IMG/VR virus record: IMGVR_UViG_2675903330_000003
Direction: 5' to 3' (one strand)
Length of the DNA stretch: 12,610 nucleotides
Origin: a virus
Taxonomy: Duplodnaviria > Heunggongvirae > Uroviricota > Caudoviricetes
This document shows positions 1 to 12,610 of the stretch, piece after piece. Numbering within the stretch: the first letter of the stretch is position 1; every line of letters starts with the position of its first letter. The notes under the pieces are model-generated. The model did not search any database, was not told the origin of the DNA, and was given only the letters and a program-made list of their open reading frames with translations. The position numbers were made by a program, and so were the translations under genes.

Positions 1-405
1 ATGGATCAGGTCGTTGTTTTTCAAAAGATGTTTGAGCAAGTGAGAAAAGAGCAAAACTTCTCCTGGTTTTATTCAGAATTAAAACATCACCGTATTGCAC
101 ATTACATTTATTATCTGGCTACGGATAACATCAGAATTATTACTCACGATGATACGGTTTTGTTATTAAGAGGAACCAGGAACCTGTTAAAAGTTAGTAC
201 GACCAAGAACCCTGCTAAAATAAAAGAGGCCGCATTGCTTCATATTTGCGGAAAATCTACATTTCGGGAATACTGTTCAACACTGGCAGGTGCGGGCGTT
301 TTCCGGTGGGTTACTGATGTTAATCATAACAAACGCAGTTACTACGCCATTGATAATACGCTTTTATATATTGAAGATGTAGAAAATAATAAACCATTAA
401 TCTAG
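1..405 (+). CDS. ycgX: DUF1398-family protein (YcgX/YdfO/YbcV-like), 134 aa
   Basis: 134-aa ORF from the track. It aligns by eye along its length with the second DUF1398 copy at 8814..9224 ([29 protein letters not shown]). Size and position beside iraM and the icd 3' remnant match K-12 ycgX. The window starts at the ATG, so the upstream region is not visible. Confidence 0.8.
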   Translation: MDQVVVFQKMFEQVRKEQNFSWFYSELKHHRIAHYIYYLATDNIRIITHDDTVLLLRGTRNLLKVSTTKNPAKIKEAALLHICGKSTFREYCSTLAGAGVFRWVTDVNHNKRSYYAIDNTLLYIEDVENNKPLI

Positions 406-1508: not shown

Positions 1509-1533
1509 TTCAATATTTAACACATGGAGAGAT

Positions 1534-1697
1534 TACATGTTTTCGATGATCGCTTCACCAAACTCTGAACATTTCAGCAGCTTAGCGCCTTCCATCAGAC
1601 GTTCGAAGTCATAAGTTACGGTCTTGGCATTGATTGCGCCTTCCATACCTTTAACAATCAGGTCAGCCGCTTCAGTCCAACCCATATGGCGCAGCAG
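1534..1697 (-). pseudogene. icdC: Displaced 3' end of isocitrate dehydrogenase gene (icdC-like remnant, last ~53 codons)
   Basis: Minus-strand translation ends [53 protein letters not shown], matching the Icd C-terminus as recalled. No start codon or upstream icd sequence; similarity stops near 1697. This is the expected footprint of phage integration into the icd 3' end. Confidence 0.85.
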
Positions 1698-2397
1698 TAT
1701 ATAAAAACCATGAATTCAAGTCATTGATATTTAACGATAAAAATTATTTTATTGTCTTTTTATTAGCCAAAATAAACTTTATTCAACCGTTTGATTTCAT
1801 TGACGTTCGTTTTTATTTTGGGGAAAGGTTTTCTCTACCATTTATATCCAAATTACAAGTCTACATTTTATTAACATCTCAATACATGTGAGGCCTTGCA
1901 GACCTTTGTGAGACCTTATGTGTCTCTGTTTTGTCCCAACTTATGTTAAGAGGCACATAATTAAAAATAAGATAACGATGCCGCCAAGCAGTGCAAAACC
2001 TTGTTTACTCCACGACTGTCTGCCCCATTATCTGCATACATAATTATCCTCCATAACTGAGATAAATGTCGGTTATGAGCGAACAACAGACGTTTAGTTT
2101 ATGATGGCTGTGTCTATACATTAAACATAACATCCATTACCGGCACCGCTTATTAATTGCTATCTGATATTGTCACTAAAAAAATAGGCATTCCCCGATA
2201 TAATAATCACAAAGAAGCTTTTGGTGCTGGCAATCGGTATACCTCATAGTGGACTGCGACTTTCCGGGCACGACAAGGATATATCAATGTATGAGCAGGA
2301 AAATTAGACCGTGGTGCGTCATATGATGACTAAGCACGGATAACAGCTACTTAATTGAAACTATTGATTATATTACAGCCAGTGCCTTATAGGATGG

Positions 2398-3519
2398 TTA
2401 GTCATCAACCGCGACTCCTGCACAATCATGGGCTATTGCCAGCAATTGTTTTTTAATTGCTTTAGCATCTACCGTCATATCTACTGTAGCAAAATGGATC
2501 TTATGTCCCTGAGTGACAACATACTCATTAAGCATATAGCCAACAGCTGGATGAAGTAGAAGACCAGCGGCATTGAGCGAAAGCGGATCCGTCTTGTTCT
2601 CCTGTGTTCTAAGGTAGGTATATAGCTGATAAATATAGCCATTACGTAGTGATTGCTCCCGATGCCAACCCTTTGTCAGAATCGAATTAAATTTGGTATC
2701 GATAATAATACGCCGCTGGGCAGTCTTGTGTTCCAGAATAATGTCTGACTTCATTGTCGGGAAAATCTCTGCACTACCTGCACTTTGATCGCTCAACGCC
2801 CATTTCAGCTCTTTCCCTGCAGAGACCTGCCAAGTTGTTTTGGCAAGGTGTACACGATATAAGCCAGCGATACCTTTTTCAAATAGTCTTCTCATCCAGT
2901 AAAGGTTATTTGAGGGCGCAGGTAAAAGATATTGGCCTTGATCTTCGGTCGGCATCAGCAGTTCAAAAGCTAATCGTGCGGCATCGACCATCGGTTTATC
3001 TGCGGCATCATGGCGTCCAAAACGCCACACTGAGGGTAATTCGCGGGGGGCAGGATATCCTCCATTTATCCCCTCACGGCGAAGTGATATTGCCATAAAA
3101 TGGCAATCTGCCGCCAAAGACGGTTTCACTATGATTGAGGCCAGACGTTCTAACGCACAGCGAACATAGCGATTTCGGGGGGTGTTGAGGGTTATGTCTT
3201 GAAAATGGCAGGCAACCTGTCCCCGTTCCAGCAGTTGATGACTGGCAGTATACAGTATGTCAATGCGCCCTCTCACCCGGTTCAGGGCCGCATGACAAGT
3301 TTGGTATCCCATATTTAAATTGCGACGTCGGCGCAGCGTAATCTCATGAAGGAGGATTGTCGCCACCAGGTCGGGGATTTCTGCTGGGTTATCTTCTACT
3401 GCGATCTGATTGCGCCCTAACTGGCGAAACAGATCTGAAGCGTACAGCATCAGCATCCAGATATTTCGCATGGGAATACGTGATGCTGTATGTTGCTCAC
3501 TCCCGGTTATTGTCGTCAT
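2398..3519 (-). CDS. McrC-family endonuclease subunit of a Type IV (modification-dependent) restriction system, 373 aa
   Basis: N-terminal RIPMRNIWMLMLYAS resembles E. coli McrC PVIPVRNIYYMLTYAW. C-terminal SDIILEHK...RRIIIDTKF...YIYQLYTYL...AGLLLHP parallels McrC TDITIRSSEKILIVDAKYY...NLYQLMNYL...GGLLIYP, including the PD-(D/E)xK-type D...DxK motif. ATGA start/stop overlap with the upstream McrB-like gene. Confidence 0.85.
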   Translation of the reverse strand: MTTITGSEQHTASRIPMRNIWMLMLYASDLFRQLGRNQIAVEDNPAEIPDLVATILLHEITLRRRRNLNMGYQTCHAALNRVRGRIDILYTASHQLLERGQVACHFQDITLNTPRNRYVRCALERLASIIVKPSLAADCHFMAISLRREGINGGYPAPRELPSVWRFGRHDAADKPMVDAARLAFELLMPTEDQGQYLLPAPSNNLYWMRRLFEKGIAGLYRVHLAKTTWQVSAGKELKWALSDQSAGSAEIFPTMKSDIILEHKTAQRRIIIDTKFNSILTKGWHREQSLRNGYIYQLYTYLRTQENKTDPLSLNAAGLLLHPAVGYMLNEYVVTQGHKIHFATVDMTVDAKAIKKQLLAIAHDCAGVAVDD

Positions 3520-5498
3520 TTTGCTAATAACACTTTTCTGGCTTCATCGACTTTATTTGGAGCATCGAACCAATATTCGGCGAGCAAAGGGCAGATCTCT
3601 GTATCAACGACTTGTTCATACCAAGCCTGGGCATCGTTGATTTTTTGGCCGATAGCTGGGGTGACATAGCTGTGACCGATACAAAACTGTGGTCCTAAGG
3701 TAACATCTTTTGCCAGCATATCGTTTAATACCGTCAGTCGAGATTTGATGAATGCTAACATGTCAAAATCAATTGCGTAATTATAATTTACCCAGTTTCT
3801 CCACGCGTCATTAAAAGCTGGCTTTAGATCGATAAACGCGAAACGACGGCGCAGCGCTAGGTCAAGTAGTGCGAGTGAGCGGTCTGCAATATTCATCGTA
3901 CCGATGATATATAGATTCTCAGGAATGTATATTTTTTCATCAGCATTTTTAGGATAGGAAAGAGATAATGCCTCAGTCGGCGTGCGTTTATCTGCTTCCA
4001 TCAACGTGAGTGTTTCACCGAAGATTTGCGCCGGATTGCCACGATTAATCTCTTCAATTATCACCACATATTTCGAGGTAGGATTATTGACTGCAGTTTT
4101 GATTGCATTTACAAAAGGTCCATCAATTAGCGTCAATTGCCCTTCTTTACCTGGACGCCAGCCTCGAATAAAGTCTTCGTAAGAGAGGTTCGGGTGAAAT
4201 TGCACCGCGCTAATACGCTCAGGTGCTTTTTCTCCCATCAAGCAGTACGCCAGACGTCGCGCTAACCAAGTTTTTCCAGTTCCGGGTGGTCCTTGTAATA
4301 TCAGGTTTTTCTTGTCGATCAGGCGCTGAAGTGTGAGTTGGATCTTAGCCTCTTCCAAGAAACAGCCATCCTGCACCAGATGACTGATGTCATAAGGAAC
4401 GTGGGTGAGTTTTGGCAACAGCGCACTCTCTTCGACAGTTTCCTCAGTTATCGTCTGGGATTCGTTTTTCTCAAAATTCAGGTATTCATAATTTCCGGAC
4501 TCGAGGGACTTTAACTCATCATCATTGCATAGTTTCTGTAGATAAAAGTAGATTGAGCTTGTAACAGTTTTGCTCTCAGGATGCTCTACCTTGAATACGT
4601 CCAAGTAGTTTTCTTCCAACTCCGAAGCAGTGAAATAAGGGCCATTTTTTTTCAGGCATAACGCCTTAATTTTATTCAGTAAAGAGGCTTTCCACGTTCT
4701 ATTTGCCACCTCATCTTTAGACTGGCTAAGATCTGTATTCCACGCTGATAAGGAAAGTTCTGGGAAAGAATGAACCGGATAGTTTGGTTGGGTAAAGACC
4801 TCGTTCAGCGCCCGCATAAGACTCAGGTAACTTTGTCCACTACAGCGACCTTTTGCCCCGTTTTTAATGATCTTAATGTTTAACACTGTCTGAATGTAAT
4901 ACTGCGACTGGCTATCTAAAGTGGGGTAGAACCAAGGACGGGTCCAGTACAACCCCATGGTGAGATTCCAACCGACATTCATTACTGTAGAAGCGATGTC
5001 ATATGCGGCAGTGAAGTCTGCAGAGTTAGTATTCTGGTTATCCGCAAAGATCATTGCCTGTGAGAACATTTCCCACAAGCATTCAATGTCATTAGGGTCG
5101 CGTGACTTTTCATAACCAAAGAACCAAGATTTTTGGTTATTCAACAGAGGGATTCCGGCAAAGGAGTCAGGAATCGGTTCGTTCACGCCCAACAAATTCG
5201 CTAGCTTGGCAGCAATAATTTTGCGATTGCTGTCGGTCAAGTTACGATTGAACAAGCCCATAGTAGTAAACGGACAAATGTCTTTTAAGGGAAAGATCTC
5301 TCCCATAATAGATTTGTCCTGCAGATGGGACATTCCTTCCACACCCGAGGCAATTAGATGAATACCTTTGACTAATTCATCTCTACGATTTCGCCAAGTC
5401 AGTAACGCGTTGGCAAAAGCCTCATAAAAACTAGCCCAAGCAAACTTGCCATCATGTTCTGCTGTATCCACGGGAACTCCATTATACTTGTTGAGCAA
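3516..5498 (-). CDS. McrB-family GTPase (AAA+) subunit with an extended ~380-aa N-terminal region, 660 aa as called
   Basis: C-terminal half contains LILQGPPGTGKTWLARRLAY...VQFHPNLSYEDFIRGWRP...LYIIGTMNIADRSLALLDLALRRRFAF...CIGHSYV...PLLAEYWFD, closely paralleling the E. coli McrB GTPase domain. The start is uncertain: the track start is TTG at 5498 with no SD, while an in-frame GTG at 5471 is preceded by GGAG at 5-nt spacing. Confidence 0.85.
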   Translation of the reverse strand: MLNKYNGVPVDTAEHDGKFAWASFYEAFANALLTWRNRRDELVKGIHLIASGVEGMSHLQDKSIMGEIFPLKDICPFTTMGLFNRNLTDSNRKIIAAKLANLLGVNEPIPDSFAGIPLLNNQKSWFFGYEKSRDPNDIECLWEMFSQAMIFADNQNTNSADFTAAYDIASTVMNVGWNLTMGLYWTRPWFYPTLDSQSQYYIQTVLNIKIIKNGAKGRCSGQSYLSLMRALNEVFTQPNYPVHSFPELSLSAWNTDLSQSKDEVANRTWKASLLNKIKALCLKKNGPYFTASELEENYLDVFKVEHPESKTVTSSIYFYLQKLCNDDELKSLESGNYEYLNFEKNESQTITEETVEESALLPKLTHVPYDISHLVQDGCFLEEAKIQLTLQRLIDKKNLILQGPPGTGKTWLARRLAYCLMGEKAPERISAVQFHPNLSYEDFIRGWRPGKEGQLTLIDGPFVNAIKTAVNNPTSKYVVIIEEINRGNPAQIFGETLTLMEADKRTPTEALSLSYPKNADEKIYIPENLYIIGTMNIADRSLALLDLALRRRFAFIDLKPAFNDAWRNWVNYNYAIDFDMLAFIKSRLTVLNDMLAKDVTLGPQFCIGHSYVTPAIGQKINDAQAWYEQVVDTEICPLLAEYWFDAPNKVDEARKVLLAK

Positions 5499-5831
5499 TG
5501 ATAATTTATCTGTGTGAGTTTTAACATATTACTATCAGTTATAGAAAAATTTAACTATCCGATACAGAGAGCGGAATGCTGAATTTGACCTGACTTGCTT
5601 CCAACCAATTAAAATCAACTTATTTATCAATTGGTTATTTTGGCACATGGCGGTCATCAAGGCAATATCGCGTTGTCATAAGGTGTCGAGGCTCGGAGGT
5701 TCAAATCCTCTCATACAAAAAATAAATAAAATTAATGACGGTTGGAAATTATTCAATACACTCTCGAAAGTACATCAGCCAACCGCAGCACGTTATTGCA
5801 TATAACGTTTCTGCGGCATATCACAAAACTA

Positions 5832-6416
5832 TTATTCCATAACAGGGATTGCAGGCCACTCAATATCAGGTGCAGTTGATGTATCAACACGATTCAGCAA
5901 CACCCGATACTTCTTCCAGGCTTCAAGCAACGAGGTTTCTTCCTCCGTTGCGATTTCCAGATCTGCAGCATCCTGAAGCGGGGCAATATGCTCACTGGCT
6001 ACCTGCATCAGGCTGTTTTTTGTTTCTTCCGCCTCCCGGATCCGGAACAGTTTTTCTGCTTCCGTATCCTTCACCCAGGCTGTGCCGTTCCACTTCTGAA
6101 ACTCCCCTTCCGGGGATAACCAGGTGATATTTTCCGGTAGAGGTCCGAGTTCAGAAATAAATAACGAGTCGCCGGAAGCCACGTCATAGACGGTTTTTCC
6201 CCGATGATCTTCAACGAGATGCCACGATGCCTCATCACTGTTGAAAACAGCCACGAAGCCTACCGGAATATCTGGCGGTGCAATATAGGTACTGTTTGCT
6301 GGCAGACCTGTATGAGGCGGAATATATGCGTCACCTTCACCAATAAATTCATTAGTTCCGGCCAGCAGATTATAAATTTTTATGGTCCGTGGTTGTTCAC
6401 TCATTCTGAATGCCAT
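5832..6416 (-). CDS. tfa: Tail fibre assembly protein (Tfa), 194 aa
   Basis: Sequence [24 protein letters not shown]...EWPAIPVME recognised as the lambdoid TfaQ/TfaR family. Its ATG shares one base with the stop of the upstream stf fragment (TAATG), the typical stf-tfa arrangement. Confidence 0.85.
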
Positions 6417-7368
6417 TATGCAAGCCTCACAATGTAGTTAAATGCGATGTTTTTGACGGTGTTTTCCGCGTTACCAGCAGCGTTAACGGTGATGGTGTGT
6501 CCATGTGAGCCAATCGCAACGGAGTGCGTATGAGCACCAATACCGACAGTATGTGCATGTGCGCCTGCGCTTGCAGCAGTGCCGGACAGCGAGTGGGTAT
6601 GAGCACCATCTGATGATGTCTTCCCTGCATTACGAGTCTGGCCACTACCGCTTGTTGTGCTCATAATCCCCGCGCTTGGATTTGAAATCGCGGTATAACC
6701 ATTAGGGAAAATGCTCGTGTTCGTGCCACCAAATGCACCGGAACTCTTGTGTTGGTGCGCGCCGGCACTATTTGCGGTCCCGCTAATACTATGGGTATGC
6801 GCCCCGGTGTTATTCGTGGATTTGGTTCCGTAATCAAACGACGATGTGGTTTTCGTCCCCAAATCCGTACTGGATGCGCTGGCGCTGTGGGTGTGCGATT
6901 TAATGCCGTCCTGTTCCTGAGATAATACGGCCCGACCACTGGCGGGCTTGCCCTTAATCGTCCAGCCACGCATATCAGGGATCACGCCTGACGGATAAGC
7001 AACTGCAAGTTTCGGGTATGCAGATTTGTCAAAAGTCTGCCCCTGCATCAGGGCATAACCAGACGGAACGGTATCTGATGGCCACGGGATTGGTGCACCG
7101 ACTGGATAAAACTCTGCAGGAGGATGAGCCGAGGTGTAAAGCTGCGCCCACGGCGACCAGTTTGCGTCGGTCGTATCCCGTCGTGAACGAATAAATGCCG
7201 GAGCATGAGCACCGCTTGTACCACTCCAGCCGATGAGTAACTCACCTTCGCCAACGGCTGTCATCCCTTTCAGGTGAATGATATTTCCATACGCTGTTGG
7301 ATATCCGTTGTTATACACCTCGTATAACTCAAGACCTGCTGCCCCCTGCGTATTGTCTGTCAGCGCGG
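6416..7368 (-). pseudogene. stf: 3' fragment of a side tail fibre gene (stf), C-terminal ~300+ aa with His-rich GAHTHS repeats
   Basis: Repeats ([44 protein letters not shown]) are typical of lambdoid Stf C-terminal domains. The frame is open upstream to ~7387 with no ATG; the track start at 7318 is a GTG. Directly abutted by the truncated terminase gene, so the N-terminal part is missing. Confidence 0.7.
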
Positions 7369-7614
7369 TTAACCGACACGGGCAGACTTCACCACATTCA
7401 CCTCACGGATGTAGTCGCTGCCCATCGCATTCATGATGGCCCGCTGAAAGGGCAGTGTTTCCCAGCGCCCTTCCTGGTATGCGGATTCTTTCGGGAGATA
7501 GTAATTAGCATCCGCCCATTCAACGGCGGTCTGTGGCTCCGGCCTGAACAGTGAGCGAAGCCCGGCGCGGACAAAATGCCGCAGCCTGTTAACCTGACTG
7601 TTCGATATATTCAC
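7369..7614 (-). pseudogene. Truncated terminase large subunit (lambda gpA N-terminal 81 codons only)
   Basis: [81 protein letters not shown] matches the lambda gpA N-terminus as recalled (full length ~641 aa). The frame ends at TAA 7369..7371, after which the sequence switches to stf. Start overlaps the 3' end of the Nu1 gene as in lambda. Confidence 0.85.
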
Positions 7615-8134
7615 TCAGCAACCCCGGTATCAGTTCATCCAGCGCGGCTGCTTTGTTCATGGCTTTGATGATATCCCGTTTCAGGAAATCAACATGTCGG
7701 TTTTCCAGTTCCGGAAAACGCCGCTGCACCGACAGGGGGATCCCGTCGAGAATACTGGCAATTTCACCTGCGATCCGCGACAGCACGAAAGTACAGAATG
7801 CGGTTTCCACCACTTCAGCGGAGTCTCTGGCATTTTTCAGCTCCTGTGCGTCGGCCTGCGCACGCGTAAGTCGATGGCGTTCGTACTCAATAGTCCCTGG
7901 CTGGAGATCTGTCTCGCTGGCCTGCCGCAGTTCTTCAACTTCCCGGCGCAGCTTTTCGTTCTCAATTTCAGCATCCCTTTCGGCATACCATTTTATGACG
8001 GCGGCAGAATCATAAAGCACCTCATTACCCTTGCCACCGCCTCGCAGAACGGGCATTCCCTGTTCCTGCCAGTTCTGAATGGTACGGATACTCGCACCGA
8101 AAATGTCAGCCAGCTGCTTTTTGTTGACTTCCAT
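7589..8134 (-). CDS. nohA: Terminase small subunit (lambda Nu1 homolog), 181 aa, apparently intact
   Basis: Full-length match to lambda Nu1 as recalled (MEVNKKQLADIFGASIRTIQNWQEQGMPVLRGGGKGNEVLYDSAAVIKWYAERD...SEYIEQSG), located immediately downstream of the cos site. Confidence 0.9.
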   Translation of the reverse strand: MEVNKKQLADIFGASIRTIQNWQEQGMPVLRGGGKGNEVLYDSAAVIKWYAERDAEIENEKLRREVEELRQASETDLQPGTIEYERHRLTRAQADAQELKNARDSAEVVETAFCTFVLSRIAGEIASILDGIPLSVQRRFPELENRHVDFLKRDIIKAMNKAAALDELIPGLLSEYIEQSG

Positions 8135-8756: not shown

Positions 8757-8813
8757 AGCAATTTAGATAATCGTGCAGACTACGCCCCCTCATATCACAT
8801 GGAAGGTTTATCT

Positions 8814-9224
8814 ATGGATCAGGTAGTCATTTTTAAACAAATATTTGATAAAGTTCGAAACGATTTAAACTATCAATGGTTTTATTCTGAGCTAAAACGT
8901 CACAATGTCTCACATTACATTTACTATTTAGCCACAGAGAATGTTCATATTGTATTAAAAAATGATAATACAGTGTTATTAAAGGGCCTAAAAAACATTG
9001 TGTCTGTCAAATTTTCAAAGGATAGGCATCTTATAGAAACGACCTCTAATAAGCTGAAATCCAGAGAGATCACATTTCAGGAATACAGAAGAAACCTTGC
9101 TAAAGCAGGAGTTTTTCGGTGGGTTACAAATATCCACGAACAAAAAAGATATTACTATACCTTTGATAATTCATTACTATTTACTGAAAGCATCCAGAAA
9201 ACTACACAGATCTTACCACGCTAA
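8814..9224 (+). CDS. ydfO: DUF1398-family protein (YdfO-like), 136 aa from the second ATG
   Basis: GGAAGG Shine-Dalgarno 7 nt upstream of the ATG at 8814; the track start at 8799 adds 5 residues. Paralog of the ORF at 1..405. Confidence 0.8.
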
Positions 9225-11888: not shown

Positions 11889-12215
11889 ATGACTAAAAAT
11901 ACTCGTTTTTCCCCCGAAGTCCGTCAACGGGCAGTCCGTATGGTTCTGGAAAGTCAGGATGAATATGACTCACAGTGGGCGGCAATTTGTTCCATTGCCC
12001 CAAAGATTGGCTGTACGCCGGAGACTCTGCGTGTCTGGGTTCGCCAGCATGAGCGGGATACCGGGGGCGGTGATGGTGGGCTCACCAGCGCTGAACGTCA
12101 GCGTCTGAAAGAGCTGGAACGTGAAAATCGTGAACTGCGCCGCAGTAACGATATCCTTCGCCAGGCTTCCGCTTATTTTGCGAAGGCGGAGTTCGACCGC
12201 CTCTGGAAAAAATGA
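11889..12215 (+). CDS. IS3-family transposase OrfA (helix-turn-helix / leucine-zipper part), 108 aa
   Basis: [23 protein letters not shown]...[36 protein letters not shown]; ends in an A6 run (12207..12212) where the -1 frame orfB opens. Confidence 0.9.
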
Positions 12216-12610
12216 TGCCACTGCTGGATAAGCTGCGTGAGCAGTACGGGGTCGGACCGGTATGCAGCGAACTGCATATTGCCCCGTCAACGTATTACCA
12301 TTGTCAGCAACAGCGACATCATCCGGATAAACGCAGTGCCCGTGCGCAGCACGATGACTGGCTGAAGAGAGAGATACAGCGCGTATACGATGAAAATCAT
12401 CAGGTGTACGGTGTGCGTAAAGTCTGGCGTCAGTTGTTACGGGAAGGAATCAGGGTGGCCAGATGTACAGTGGCGCGCCTCATGGCGGTTATGGGACTTG
12501 CCGGTGTTCTCCGGGGTAAAAAGGTCCGTACGACCATCAGCCGGAAAGCCGTTGCCGCAGGCGACCGCGTAAACCGTCAGTTCGTGGCAGAACGACCTGA
12601 CCAGCTGTGG
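12212..12610 (+). CDS. IS3-family transposase OrfB (DDE catalytic part), N-terminal 133 codons, truncated by the window end
   Basis: The -1 frame relative to orfA is open from 12212 to the window end ([34 protein letters not shown]...VAERPDQLW), the typical IS3 OrfAB frameshift arrangement. Not in the ORF track because it has no stop in the window. Confidence 0.8.

What the first reader, a model, noticed from the sequence alone, without database searches (positions are those of the whole stretch)
2398..5498. McrBC-family Type IV restriction module in the prophage b-region slot beside the icd att remnant
Two translationally coupled genes (ATGA overlap) encode clear McrB and McrC homologs. They sit between the tail fibre assembly gene and the displaced icd 3' end, the same relative position where the K-12 e14 prophage carries mcrA. 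This suggests the tfa-to-att interval of icd-integrating lambdoid prophages is an exchangeable defence slot, with different modification-dependent nucleases in different strains.
Basis: partly seen in the sequence, partly recalled or inferred. Interest (0 to 1): 0.65.

Follow-up and report, generated by a model that had tools for sequence, protein, structure and literature searches.

The report
Prophage-borne McrBC variant with unknown sensor
A phage-21-like prophage remnant next to the E. coli icd gene carries an intact two-gene McrBC-type restriction cassette; its DNA-sensing domain differs from the classical enzyme's and has never been characterised, and the slot it sits in is general phage cargo space rather than a dedicated defence slot.

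Summary
Window 2398-3519(-) encodes a full-length McrC. Window 3516-5471(-) (RefSeq start GTG 5471, 651 aa) encodes a protein whose C-terminal half is a McrB-type AAA+ GTPase. The two genes overlap by ATGA and lie between tfa and the displaced icd 3' end, where K-12 e14 carries mcrA.

Two corrections follow.
- The "McrB" is not an EcoKMcrB equivalent. Its N-terminal 360 aa are Pfam DUF8425 plus a winged helix homologous to the DpnI C-terminal 6mA reader. DUF8425 has no significant match in the solved-structure or viral-model libraries. This is the "NTD-wH-NTPase + McrC" class listed but never characterised by Helbrecht et al. 2024. The DpnI methyl-pocket residues are replaced, and the hosts and a carrier prophage methylate adenine, so Gm6ATC is an unlikely target. 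Specificity is unknown.
- The slot is the b region of phage-21-type lambdoid prophages. It holds exchangeable cargo, not only defence: sitABCD (at least 739 genomes, and phage 21 itself), mcrA (330), this cassette (about 288-305 of 5426) and an ompT set.

The 3.2-kb cassette also occurs at 86-89% amino-acid identity in other Enterobacterales, in non-prophage islands, under purifying selection. This is a member of a known kind, moderately interesting.

The parts
3516..5471 (-). mcrB-like gene (651 aa from GTG 5471; a TTG at 5498 would add 9 aa): DUF8425 + winged helix + McrB-type AAA+ GTPase with lid
   Evidence: ORF. The RefSeq homologue is 1956 nt. The AAA+ half matches PDB 6hz4 McrB at 5e-76. 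The exact protein is in public databases as 'AAA family ATPase'.
4737..5471 (-). DUF8425 (PF28527) domain, aa 1-245; predicted DNA/modification sensor of unknown fold family
   Evidence: Homologues carry precomputed PF28527 = DUF8425. In the AF2 model, pLDDT is above 90 over most of residues 10-245. There is no significant PDB or BFVD structural match. Alignment A2 has 53 invariant columns.
4452..4724 (-). winged-helix domain (aa ~250-340) homologous to the DpnI C-terminal 6mA-reading wH, with a remodelled recognition helix (SSIYFYLQKLCND)
3543..4367 (-). McrB-type AAA+ GTPase and lid (aa 369-643): Walker A G394-T401 (GPPGTGKT), Walker B E473-E474, NxxD N527-D530, arginines R541-R543
   Evidence: Residue-by-residue alignment to EcoKMcrB 6hz4_A. 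Pfam AAA_5 at 8e-27. NCBIfam McrB model positions 176-452 are matched.
2398..3519 (-). mcrC gene (373 aa); PD-(D/E)xK residues D259, D274, K276
   Evidence: Pfam PF10117 at 5e-21. NCBIfam McrC equivalog scores 356 bits against a cutoff of 338. Alignment to EcoKMcrC 6hz4_M puts the D...DxK residues in register.
3516..3519 (-). ATGA stop/start overlap (translational coupling)
   Evidence: Read directly from the sequence. Conserved in L012-L016.
2366..5579 (-). mobile two-gene cassette as delimited by cross-genus DNA homology. It includes 108 bp upstream of the GTG start (candidate promoter/5'UTR, 5472-5579)
   Evidence: blastn against Buttiauxella, Citrobacter, Serratia, Erwinia and Lonsdalea loci gives 87-88% identity. 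Homology runs from window 5579 or 5570 down to 2337-2404.
1530..1697 (-). displaced icd 3' end (icdC-type pseudogene) = attR side of the prophage
   Evidence: The 50-aa ORF at 1533-1685 is. RefSeq marks a 168-nt pseudogene in L001 and L002.
1698..1951 (.). att-proximal phage DNA shared with phage 21 and other icd-integrating lambdoid phages and prophages
   Evidence: Window 1533-1951 is 90.7% identical to phage 21 and up to 94% identical to phages 4A7, 1W and 3W. It is also shared with sit-type and ompT-type prophages.
1952..2365 (.). spacer found only in genomes that carry this cassette; contains a 26-aa ORF with a strong SD (1961-2041, -)
   Evidence: Only about 300 genomes match beyond window 1938-1951. 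The sequence was read.
5580..5831 (.). tfa-proximal non-coding b-region DNA: a degenerate tRNA-Pro-like relic (5641-5712, +) and a stretch (5695-5820) homologous to the lambda b region
   Evidence: Local alignment to proL is, and ARAGORN is negative. The stretch is 76% identical to lambda 24161-24287 and matches most E. coli genomes.
5832..6416 (-). tail fibre assembly gene (tfa), the last structural gene before the cargo slot
   Evidence: ORF. RefSeq annotates it as 'tail fiber assembly protein'.

Best explanation
This is a self-contained, horizontally mobile McrBC-family (Type IV, modification-dependent) restriction cassette. It is carried as b-region cargo of a phage-21-type lambdoid prophage integrated in icd.

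**Inferred mechanism (by analogy with EcoKMcrBC).**
- The 651-aa subunit forms a GTP-hydrolysing AAA+ hexamer.
- Its N-terminal sensors (DUF8425 plus a DpnI-type winged helix) bind DNA that carries a foreign base modification.
- McrC inserts into the ring, stimulates GTPase-driven translocation, and cuts DNA with its PD-(D/E)xK site.

**What is shown.**
- Family membership of both catalytic modules.
- Intact catalytic motifs.
- Operon structure.
- Purifying selection on every domain.
- Mobility of the cassette.
- Its location in the prophage cargo slot.

**What is inferred.**
- Defence function.
- GTP dependence.
- That the sensor reads a modification other than EcoKMcrB's RmC and other than Dam Gm6ATC.

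The actual target is unknown.
For: **Catalytic modules.**
- McrC passes the NCBIfam equivalog cutoff, and its PD-(D/E)xK residues align with EcoKMcrC.
- The GTPase half is strongly similar to EcoKMcrB (about 60% identical residues by eye in the alignment) and keeps Walker A, Walker B, NxxD and the arginines.
- The ATGA coupling is conserved across genera.

**Selection.** dN/dS is 0.08-0.2 for DUF8425, wH, AAA+ and mcrC in comparisons with six other genera.

**Mobility.**
- The cassette is present in 305 of 5426 E. coli genomes and is always chromosomal.
- In 288 of them it is contiguous with icdC.
- The same cassette sits in an ssrA island in Citrobacter, near tRNA-Arg in Serratia, and beside an Rhs gene in Erwinia.

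**Sensor family.**
- DUF8425 is found fused to McrB GTPases with an adjacent McrC in distant phyla.
- The wH is homologous to DpnI's 6mA reader.
- Helbrecht et al. 2024 (PMC11037411) list this architecture as a putative Type IV system.

**Stand-alone status.** No methyltransferase gene adjoins the cassette.

**Arguments against Gm6ATC as the target.**
- DpnI pocket residues E228, K229, R231, Q232, Q235 (PMC3424567) correspond here to S, S, Y, F, Q.
- E. coli is Dam+ (established knowledge).
- The intact carrier prophage is annotated with its own N6-adenine methyltransferase.
Against: - There are no functional data for this protein or for any member of the DUF8425 family. The one reported purification attempt of this class failed (PMC11037411).
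- DUF8425 has no significant structural or sequence relative, so its role as a DNA or modification sensor rests on position and analogy only.
- No convincing sigma-70 promoter was found upstream on the coding strand.
- PADLOC-DB 2.0 assigns neither protein to a Type IV model, although it recognises McrA.
- Some genomes carry disrupted copies: an IS3 insertion in ML35 and a split mcrC in strain 1943.
- In this window the surrounding prophage is a decayed remnant.
Confidence: 0.72

Rival explanations
1. It is a functional equivalent of EcoKMcrBC, restricting 5mC/5hmC (RmC) DNA. On this reading it is simply a second copy of the classical system on a prophage.
For: RefSeq names the small subunit '5-methylcytosine-specific restriction endonuclease system specificity protein McrC'. 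The GTPase half is strongly similar to EcoKMcrB, with about 60% identical residues by eye. The neighbouring cargo type, McrA, targets modified cytosine (PMC6182155, listed).
Against: In EcoKMcrB, specificity lies in the N-terminal DUF3578/ADAM domain (PMC3424535; PMC11090510). That domain is absent here. The NCBIfam McrB match covers only model positions 176-452 and scores 262 bits against a cutoff of 637. The N-terminus has no Pfam hit and belongs to DUF8425 plus wH instead.
Confidence: 0.12
2. It is a Dam-type 6mA-dependent (Gm6ATC) nuclease, like DpnI and the other characterised wH fusion endonucleases.
For: The wH domain is homologous to DpnI_C. Characterised wH fusions show Dam+-dependent toxicity and cleavage (PMC11037411).
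Against: The cassette is stably carried, intact and under purifying selection in Dam+ Enterobacterales. It is also carried by a prophage annotated with its own N6-adenine methyltransferase. The DpnI pocket residues are replaced. Only about 10% of wH fusions keep the GATC/6mA motif (PMC11037411).
Confidence: 0.04
3. It is an inactive or silent passenger: a leftover of a decaying prophage with no current function in this strain.
For: The prophage in the window is a remnant. A truncated stf abuts a nohD fragment, and an IS3 lies nearby. No clear promoter was found. Disrupted copies exist in some genomes.
Against: Both ORFs are intact here and in about 288 genomes at 99% identity or more. All catalytic motifs are kept. 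dN/dS is about 0.1 against copies in other genera. The 108 bp upstream travel with the cassette between genera.
Confidence: 0.08
4. DUF8425 is not a DNA-modification reader. Instead the system senses something else, such as RNA or a phage protein, as proposed for the CoCoNuT branch of McrBC systems.
For: DUF8425 has no detectable relative among known DNA readers. The McrBC census shows branches predicted to target RNA (PMC11090510). Stand-alone DUF8425 genes exist.
Against: The wH partner domain is a double-stranded DNA reader in every characterised case (PMC11037411). McrC keeps a DNA-type PD-(D/E)xK site. The GTPase is of the EcoKMcrB type, and no coiled-coil or RNA-binding domain was detected.
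Confidence: 0.04

Closest known systems
EcoKMcrBC (E. coli K-12 mcrB/mcrC, Type IV restriction; PDB 6hz4, 6ut6)
   Same: Two-gene operon with mcrB upstream. AAA+ GTPase with Walker A, Walker B, NxxD and lid (E = 5e-76). McrC with the same length and aligned PD-(D/E)xK residues. No cognate methyltransferase.
   Different: EcoKMcrB's N-terminal 5mC-flipping DUF3578/ADAM domain is replaced by DUF8425 plus a DpnI-type wH, 360 aa in total. McrC shows only weak pairwise similarity to EcoKMcrC (phmmer 60 bits, E = 2.6e-15; roughly a quarter of residues identical by eye). The cassette lies in a prophage b region rather than in the hsd-mrr immigration control region.
'NTD-wH-NTPase + McrC-like' putative Type IV systems (Helbrecht et al. 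2024, Front Microbiol, PMC11037411)
   Same: [quoted passage not shown]
   Different: That class was only listed, and purification failed. The authors' working hypothesis was 6mA sensing. Here the host is Dam+ and the wH recognition helix lacks the DpnI pocket residues. Here the NTD is identified as Pfam DUF8425, and the wH is optional within the family.
EcoKMcrA in the e14 prophage of K-12
   Same: A stand-alone modification-dependent nuclease occupying the last position before the displaced icd 3' end of an icd-integrated prophage. It is found at that junction in 330 genomes.
   Different: McrA is a single HNH protein with an unrelated fold and mechanism. e14 has a Mu/P2-type invertible tail-fibre segment (pinE) rather than lambda-type stf-tfa.
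Phage 21 b region (sitABCD cargo)
   Same: The same integration module: an icd 3' copy plus about 260 bp of att-proximal DNA at 91% identity. The same slot between the side tail fibre genes and attP.
   Different: The cargo is an iron/manganese ABC transporter plus small unknown ORFs, not a nuclease.
R.DpnI C-terminal winged helix (PDB 4esj)
   Different: DpnI residues E228, K229, R231, Q232, Q235 around the two 6mA methyl groups correspond here to S, S, Y, F, Q. Here the wH is fused to a GTPase motor rather than to a PD-(D/E)xK domain.

Membership tests
McrBC (GTP-dependent Type IV restriction) | McrB-type AAA+ GTPase with Walker A, Walker B, NxxD signature and arginine fingers | tested here: met
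   Alignment to 6hz4_A at E = 5e-76 shows GPPGTGKT, IIEEINR, MNIADRS and LRRRF all present. NCBIfam McrB model positions 176-452 are matched.
McrBC (GTP-dependent Type IV restriction) | McrC partner with N-terminal DUF2357-type region and a PD-(D/E)xK nuclease | tested here: met
   Pfam PF10117 at 5e-21. NCBIfam McrC equivalog scores 356 bits against a cutoff of 338. D259, D274 and K276 align with the catalytic D...DxK of EcoKMcrC.
McrBC (GTP-dependent Type IV restriction) | Two-gene operon, mcrB upstream of mcrC, no adjacent cognate methyltransferase | tested here: met
   ATGA overlap. The flanking features are tfa and non-coding DNA.
McrBC (GTP-dependent Type IV restriction) | GTP-dependent cleavage of modified but not unmodified DNA | not testable with these tools
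   This needs biochemistry or phage and plasmid challenge assays.
EcoKMcrB equivalog (5mC/5hmC-specific McrB) | N-terminal DUF3578/ADAM 5-methylcytosine-binding domain | tested here: not met
   NCBIfam McrB equivalog scores 262 bits against a cutoff of 637 and matches only the GTPase half. Residues 1-377 have no Pfam hit at E up to 10. Homologues carry DUF8425 instead.
NTD-wH-NTPase/McrC class (PMC11037411) | [quoted passage not shown] | tested here: met
   DUF8425. The wH is assigned by end-to-end homology to P0002 (49% identity), whose wH hits DpnI_C at 3e-14 and PDB 4esj at 8e-9. A direct Pfam hit on the window protein itself was not obtained.
NTD-wH-NTPase/McrC class (PMC11037411) | DpnI-type residues for 6mA/GATC recognition in the wH recognition helix | tested here: not met
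   DpnI EKIRQQLQ corresponds to window SSIYFYLQ. Most distant homologues keep xRQxQILRD, while all seven Enterobacterales copies have F/Y-Y.
Phage-21-type icd-integrating lambdoid prophage, b-region cargo | Duplicated icd 3' end plus phage-21-like att-proximal DNA; cargo between the tail-fibre genes and att; intact relatives exist | tested here: met
   Window 1533-1951 is 90.7% identical to phage 21. A complete prophage with int-xis next to icd and J-lom-stf-tfa-mcrB-mcrC-icdC is present in 027_SK3.
   Junction counts: sitABCD type 739 genomes, mcrA 330, this cassette 288. An ompT/acetyltransferase type occurs in O157. Phage 21 and phage 4A7 carry sitABCD. PADLOC gives no hit for the 256-aa hypothetical or the acetyltransferase; the HTH regulator matches only generic HTH/control-protein models and the hydrolase a candidate model (C3a206), so none is an established defence system.
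HhH-GPD DNA glycosylase superfamily (considered for DUF8425) | HhH-GPD fold, or a profile match to EndoIII, MutY or OGG | tested here: inconclusive

The most novel reading that the evidence does not exclude
DUF8425, alone or with its remodelled DpnI-type winged helix, is a new kind of modified-base reader. It would give this McrBC motor a specificity not covered by any characterised Type IV enzyme. One possibility is a hypermodified adenine or other phage-specific base that Dam+ hosts do not make. On this reading, the replacement of the 6mA pocket (R/Q to Y/F) in the Enterobacterales clade is an adaptation that lets a 6mA-reader lineage live in Dam+ cells.
Probability: 0.3. Interest if true: 0.7.

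Novelty: new member of a known kind. Interest (0 to 1): 0.4.

Why it matters
**The sensor.** McrBC motors are known to swap sensor domains. This one pairs a conserved domain of unknown function (DUF8425, about 500 matching stretches among the GTDB species-representative genomes) with a winged helix from the 6mA-reader family. Yet it lives in Dam+ bacteria and on a phage that methylates adenine. That makes it a ready, genetically tractable case in E. coli for finding out what this uncharacterised Type IV class recognises, and how a reader domain changes specificity to avoid autoimmunity.

**Annotation.** PADLOC-DB 2.0 does not call it as Type IV, and RefSeq labels the large subunit only "AAA family ATPase". 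Defence censuses based on these resources may therefore miss it.

**The slot.** The result is a useful correction. The phage-21/e14 b region is a general cargo slot whose contents range from metal transport to restriction.

Tried and rejected
- **Single-sequence AF2 model of the N-terminus.** It was useless (pLDDT 41). It was repeated with a 68-sequence alignment and gave pLDDT 85.
- **Fold searches of that model.**
  - Foldseek against PDB: best E = 1.5.
  - Foldseek against BFVD: best E = 0.2.
  - The afdb50 library was unavailable.
- **HhH-GPD glycosylase idea for DUF8425.**
  - It was prompted by weak MutY/OGG hits and by a GVG...PTLD motif noticed by eye.
  - hhalign against E. coli Nth gave probability 0.3%, and the profile search against PDB sequences found nothing.
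  - I keep it only as an unproven lead.
- **Phage collection.** The cassette and its N-terminus have no match among 50,697 phage records.
- **PADLOC.** No Type IV model hits either protein.
- **tRNA as an island att site.**
  - ARAGORN finds no tRNA in the window.
  - The tRNA-Pro-like relic at 5641-5712 lies outside the cross-genus cassette and is absent from the other genera's loci.
  - It therefore does not mark the cassette boundary.
- **Promoter scan.** No convincing minus-strand promoter lies upstream of the operon.
- **Literature.** Full-text searches for the protein accessions, DUF8425 or PF28527 returned nothing.
- **Not done.**
  - Co-occurrence with the canonical mcrBC locus in the same genomes.
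  - A full census of all cargo types.
  - A DefenseFinder run.


Full report
**1. What is in the sequence**

The window is E. coli chromosome in this order: ycgX (1-405, +), iraM (1107-1430, +), a 50-codon icd 3' remnant (1533-1685, -), and a 712-bp spacer. Next come two overlapping minus-strand genes (2398-3519 and 3516-5498), tfa (5832-6416), a truncated side tail fibre gene, a nohD fragment, lysis genes and an IS3.

The upstream stop and the downstream start overlap as ATGA at 3516-3519. RefSeq starts the large gene at the in-frame GTG 5471, which has a GGAG 5 nt upstream. This gives 651 aa, annotated "AAA family ATPase".

**2. Family assignment**

The 373-aa protein is a full-length McrC.
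- Pfam PF10117 scores E = 5e-21.
- The NCBIfam McrC equivalog scores 356 bits against a cutoff of 338.
- Alignment to EcoKMcrC (6hz4_M) puts D259, D274 and K276 in register with the PD-(D/E)xK residues.

Residues 369-643 of the large protein align to the EcoKMcrB AAA+ GTPase at E = 5e-76. Walker A (GPPGTGKT), Walker B (EE), the NxxD signature (NIAD) and the RRR arginines are all present.

The NCBIfam McrB equivalog reaches only 262 bits against a cutoff of 637, because only model positions 176-452 match. The first 377 residues have no hit in the local Pfam copy, even at E up to 10.

**3. The N-terminal sensor**

A search with residues 1-360 found 270 relatives. Nearly all carry the precomputed Pfam family PF28527, which a later look-up names DUF8425. 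Most are fused to AAA_5 and McrB_lid and are followed by a McrC gene.

The relatives that cover the whole query also carry PF17726 (DpnI_C) between DUF8425 and the GTPase. Others carry Mrr_N there, or nothing.

The window protein is 49% identical over its entire N-terminus to P0002. P0002's winged helix hits DpnI_C at 3e-14 and PDB 4esj (R.DpnI) at 8e-9.

In the aligned recognition helix:
- DpnI reads EKIRQQLQILRD.
- Most distant homologues read xRQxQILRD.
- All seven Enterobacterales copies read S-x-(Y/S)-(F/Y)-Y-L-Q-x-L.
- The window reads SSIYFYLQKLCND.

The DpnI residues within 5 Å of the two 6mA methyl groups are E228, K229, R231, Q232 and Q235 (PMC3424567). They correspond here to S, S, Y, F and Q.

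Weak recurring hits to HhH-GPD glycosylases were not backed by profile comparison.

**4. Literature**

- The McrBC census (PMC11090510) documents that McrB GTPases carry interchangeable N-terminal specificity domains.
- Helbrecht et al. 2024 (PMC11037411) list "NTD-wH-NTPase" proteins paired with McrC-like subunits as putative Type IV systems. They state that they could not purify one and did not study it.
- Their characterised wH fusions are Dam+-dependent and toxic in Dam+ E. coli. Only about 10% of wH fusions keep the 6mA/GATC motif.
- No paper in the library mentions the accessions or DUF8425.

**5. Is it functional and mobile?**

- The cassette occurs in 305 of 5426 complete E. coli genomes. 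It is always chromosomal and at least 99% identical.
- In 288 genomes it is contiguous with icdC.
- The exact proteins are widespread in public databases under generic names.
- The same two genes, with the same 4-nt overlap, occur at 86-89% amino-acid identity in Buttiauxella, Citrobacter, Serratia, Erwinia and Lonsdalea. They occur at 67-78% in Leclercia and Enterobacter.
- DNA homology runs from about 100 bp upstream of the start (window 5570-5579) to about 0-60 bp past the mcrC stop (window 2337-2404). This defines a cassette of about 3.2 kb.
- In those genera no tail-fibre (tfa/stf) homologue lies within the 8-kb flanks. The cassette lies in an ssrA-linked island with YagK/DUF3987 genes, near tRNA-Arg, or beside an Rhs toxin.
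- dN/dS is 0.08-0.2 for every domain, including the diverged wH.
- The cassette is absent from 50,697 phage records.

**6. The slot**

Window 1533-1951 is 90.7% identical to the phage 21 attP region and up to 94% identical to other sequenced lambdoid phages.

Strain 027_SK3 has a complete prophage. It runs from int-xis next to icd, through the lambda-like early, nin, lysis, head and tail genes, to J-lom-stf-tfa-mcrB-mcrC-icdC. This confirms the b-region position.

That prophage is also annotated with a phage N6-adenine methyltransferase.

Other cargos found at the same place:

| Cargo | Where seen | Genomes with the junction |
|---|---|---|
| pinE-mcrA | K-12 e14 and relatives | 330 |
| hypothetical gene + sitABCD | several E. 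coli genomes sampled here (including APEC BEN2908), phage 21, phage 4A7 | at least 739 |
| acetyltransferase-HTH-ompT-hydrolase | one O157:H7 strain | not counted |
| this cassette | window type | 288 |

Roughly a third of genomes have the icd site occupied. None of the non-nuclease cargo proteins matches an established defence system in PADLOC; the HTH regulator and the hydrolase hit only generic or candidate models. The slot is thus a general exchangeable cargo (moron) region, not a defence-specific one.

**7. Mechanism and confidence**

By analogy with EcoKMcrBC, I infer the following steps:
- a GTPase hexamer forms;
- its DUF8425/wH sensors bind DNA bearing a foreign modification;
- McrC stimulates translocation;
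- McrC then cleaves.

Shown: family membership, motifs, operon structure, purifying selection, mobility and location. Inferred: defence role, GTP dependence and the nature of the target.

Gm6ATC is unlikely as the target, because the hosts are Dam+, the carrier phage has its own methyltransferase, and the pocket residues are replaced. EcoK-type RmC is unsupported, because the sensor is unrelated to EcoKMcrB's. Confidence in the overall explanation is 0.72.

**8. Verdict**

- It is a member of a known kind (McrBC family) in a catalogued but uncharacterised sub-architecture.
- Interest is moderate (0.4). This rests mainly on its value as a tractable E. coli entry point to the DUF8425-wH sensor, and on the 6mA-reader-in-a-Dam+-host puzzle.

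Noticed in passing
window 5641-5712 (+): A degenerate tRNA-Pro (proL)-like sequence lies between tfa and the mcrB-like gene; it aligns to positions 2-67 of the 77-nt proL sequence I supplied from memory. ARAGORN does not call it. Its 3' part, together with window 5695-5820, is homologous to lambda b-region 24161-24287 (76%) and to sequences in most E. coli genomes.
   Followed up: partly
window 1961-2041 (-): A 26-codon ORF (MYADNGADSRGVNKVLHCLAASLSYF) with a GGAGG Shine-Dalgarno 6 nt upstream. It lies in the 414-bp spacer that occurs only in genomes with this cassette.
   Followed up: no
window 2324-2336 / 2395-2407: A 13-nt inverted repeat (92% complementary, 58 nt apart) straddles the mcrC stop codon. 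This is exactly where cross-genus cassette homology ends. It could be a terminator or a recombination scar.
   Followed up: no
window 6416-8134 and 11889-12610: The prophage here is a deletion remnant. The 3' part of the side tail fibre gene abuts a nohD (small terminase) fragment, so all head and tail genes are gone. An IS3-family element sits next to the lysozyme gene.
   Followed up: partly
window 5875-6000 (-): An Rfam IS009 (sRNA candidate) match of 131.6 bits lies inside the tfa coding region. It was cut off by the range searched.
   Followed up: no
window 1-405 and 8799-9224: Two DUF1398 paralogues are present: chromosomal ycgX and a prophage ydfO/ybcV-like gene. One lies outside and one inside the prophage.
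   Followed up: no
L092 (E. coli 027_SK3 prophage) 13637-14164, 18499-19080 and 22049-23113: The intact carrier prophage also encodes a phage N6-adenine methyltransferase, a SieB superinfection-exclusion protein and a DGQHR-domain protein. It therefore carries several cargo genes related to defence or DNA modification.
   Followed up: no
L013 (Citrobacter freundii M-21) 2142-7254: Three large co-directional ORFs (736, 646 and 321 aa) lie directly upstream of the cassette in an ssrA-linked island. They have no Pfam hit, and PADLOC gives only marginal hits (ZorA/PbeC, E about 1e-4) for the 321-aa one. They may be an undescribed defence system.
   Followed up: partly
L096 3948-4703: A stand-alone 251-aa DUF8425 protein is encoded immediately upstream of a DUF8425-McrB/McrC pair in an uncultured bacterium. 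DUF8425 can therefore exist as a separate subunit.
   Followed up: no
L007 9676-10446 (-) and equivalents in L008, L009; a similar-sized ORF at the equivalent position in L094: A conserved 256-aa hypothetical protein (WP_000567449) occupies the icdC-proximal position in sitABCD-type prophages; phage 21 has a 252-aa hypothetical at the same position (homology not tested). WP_000567449 has no Pfam or PADLOC hit.
   Followed up: partly
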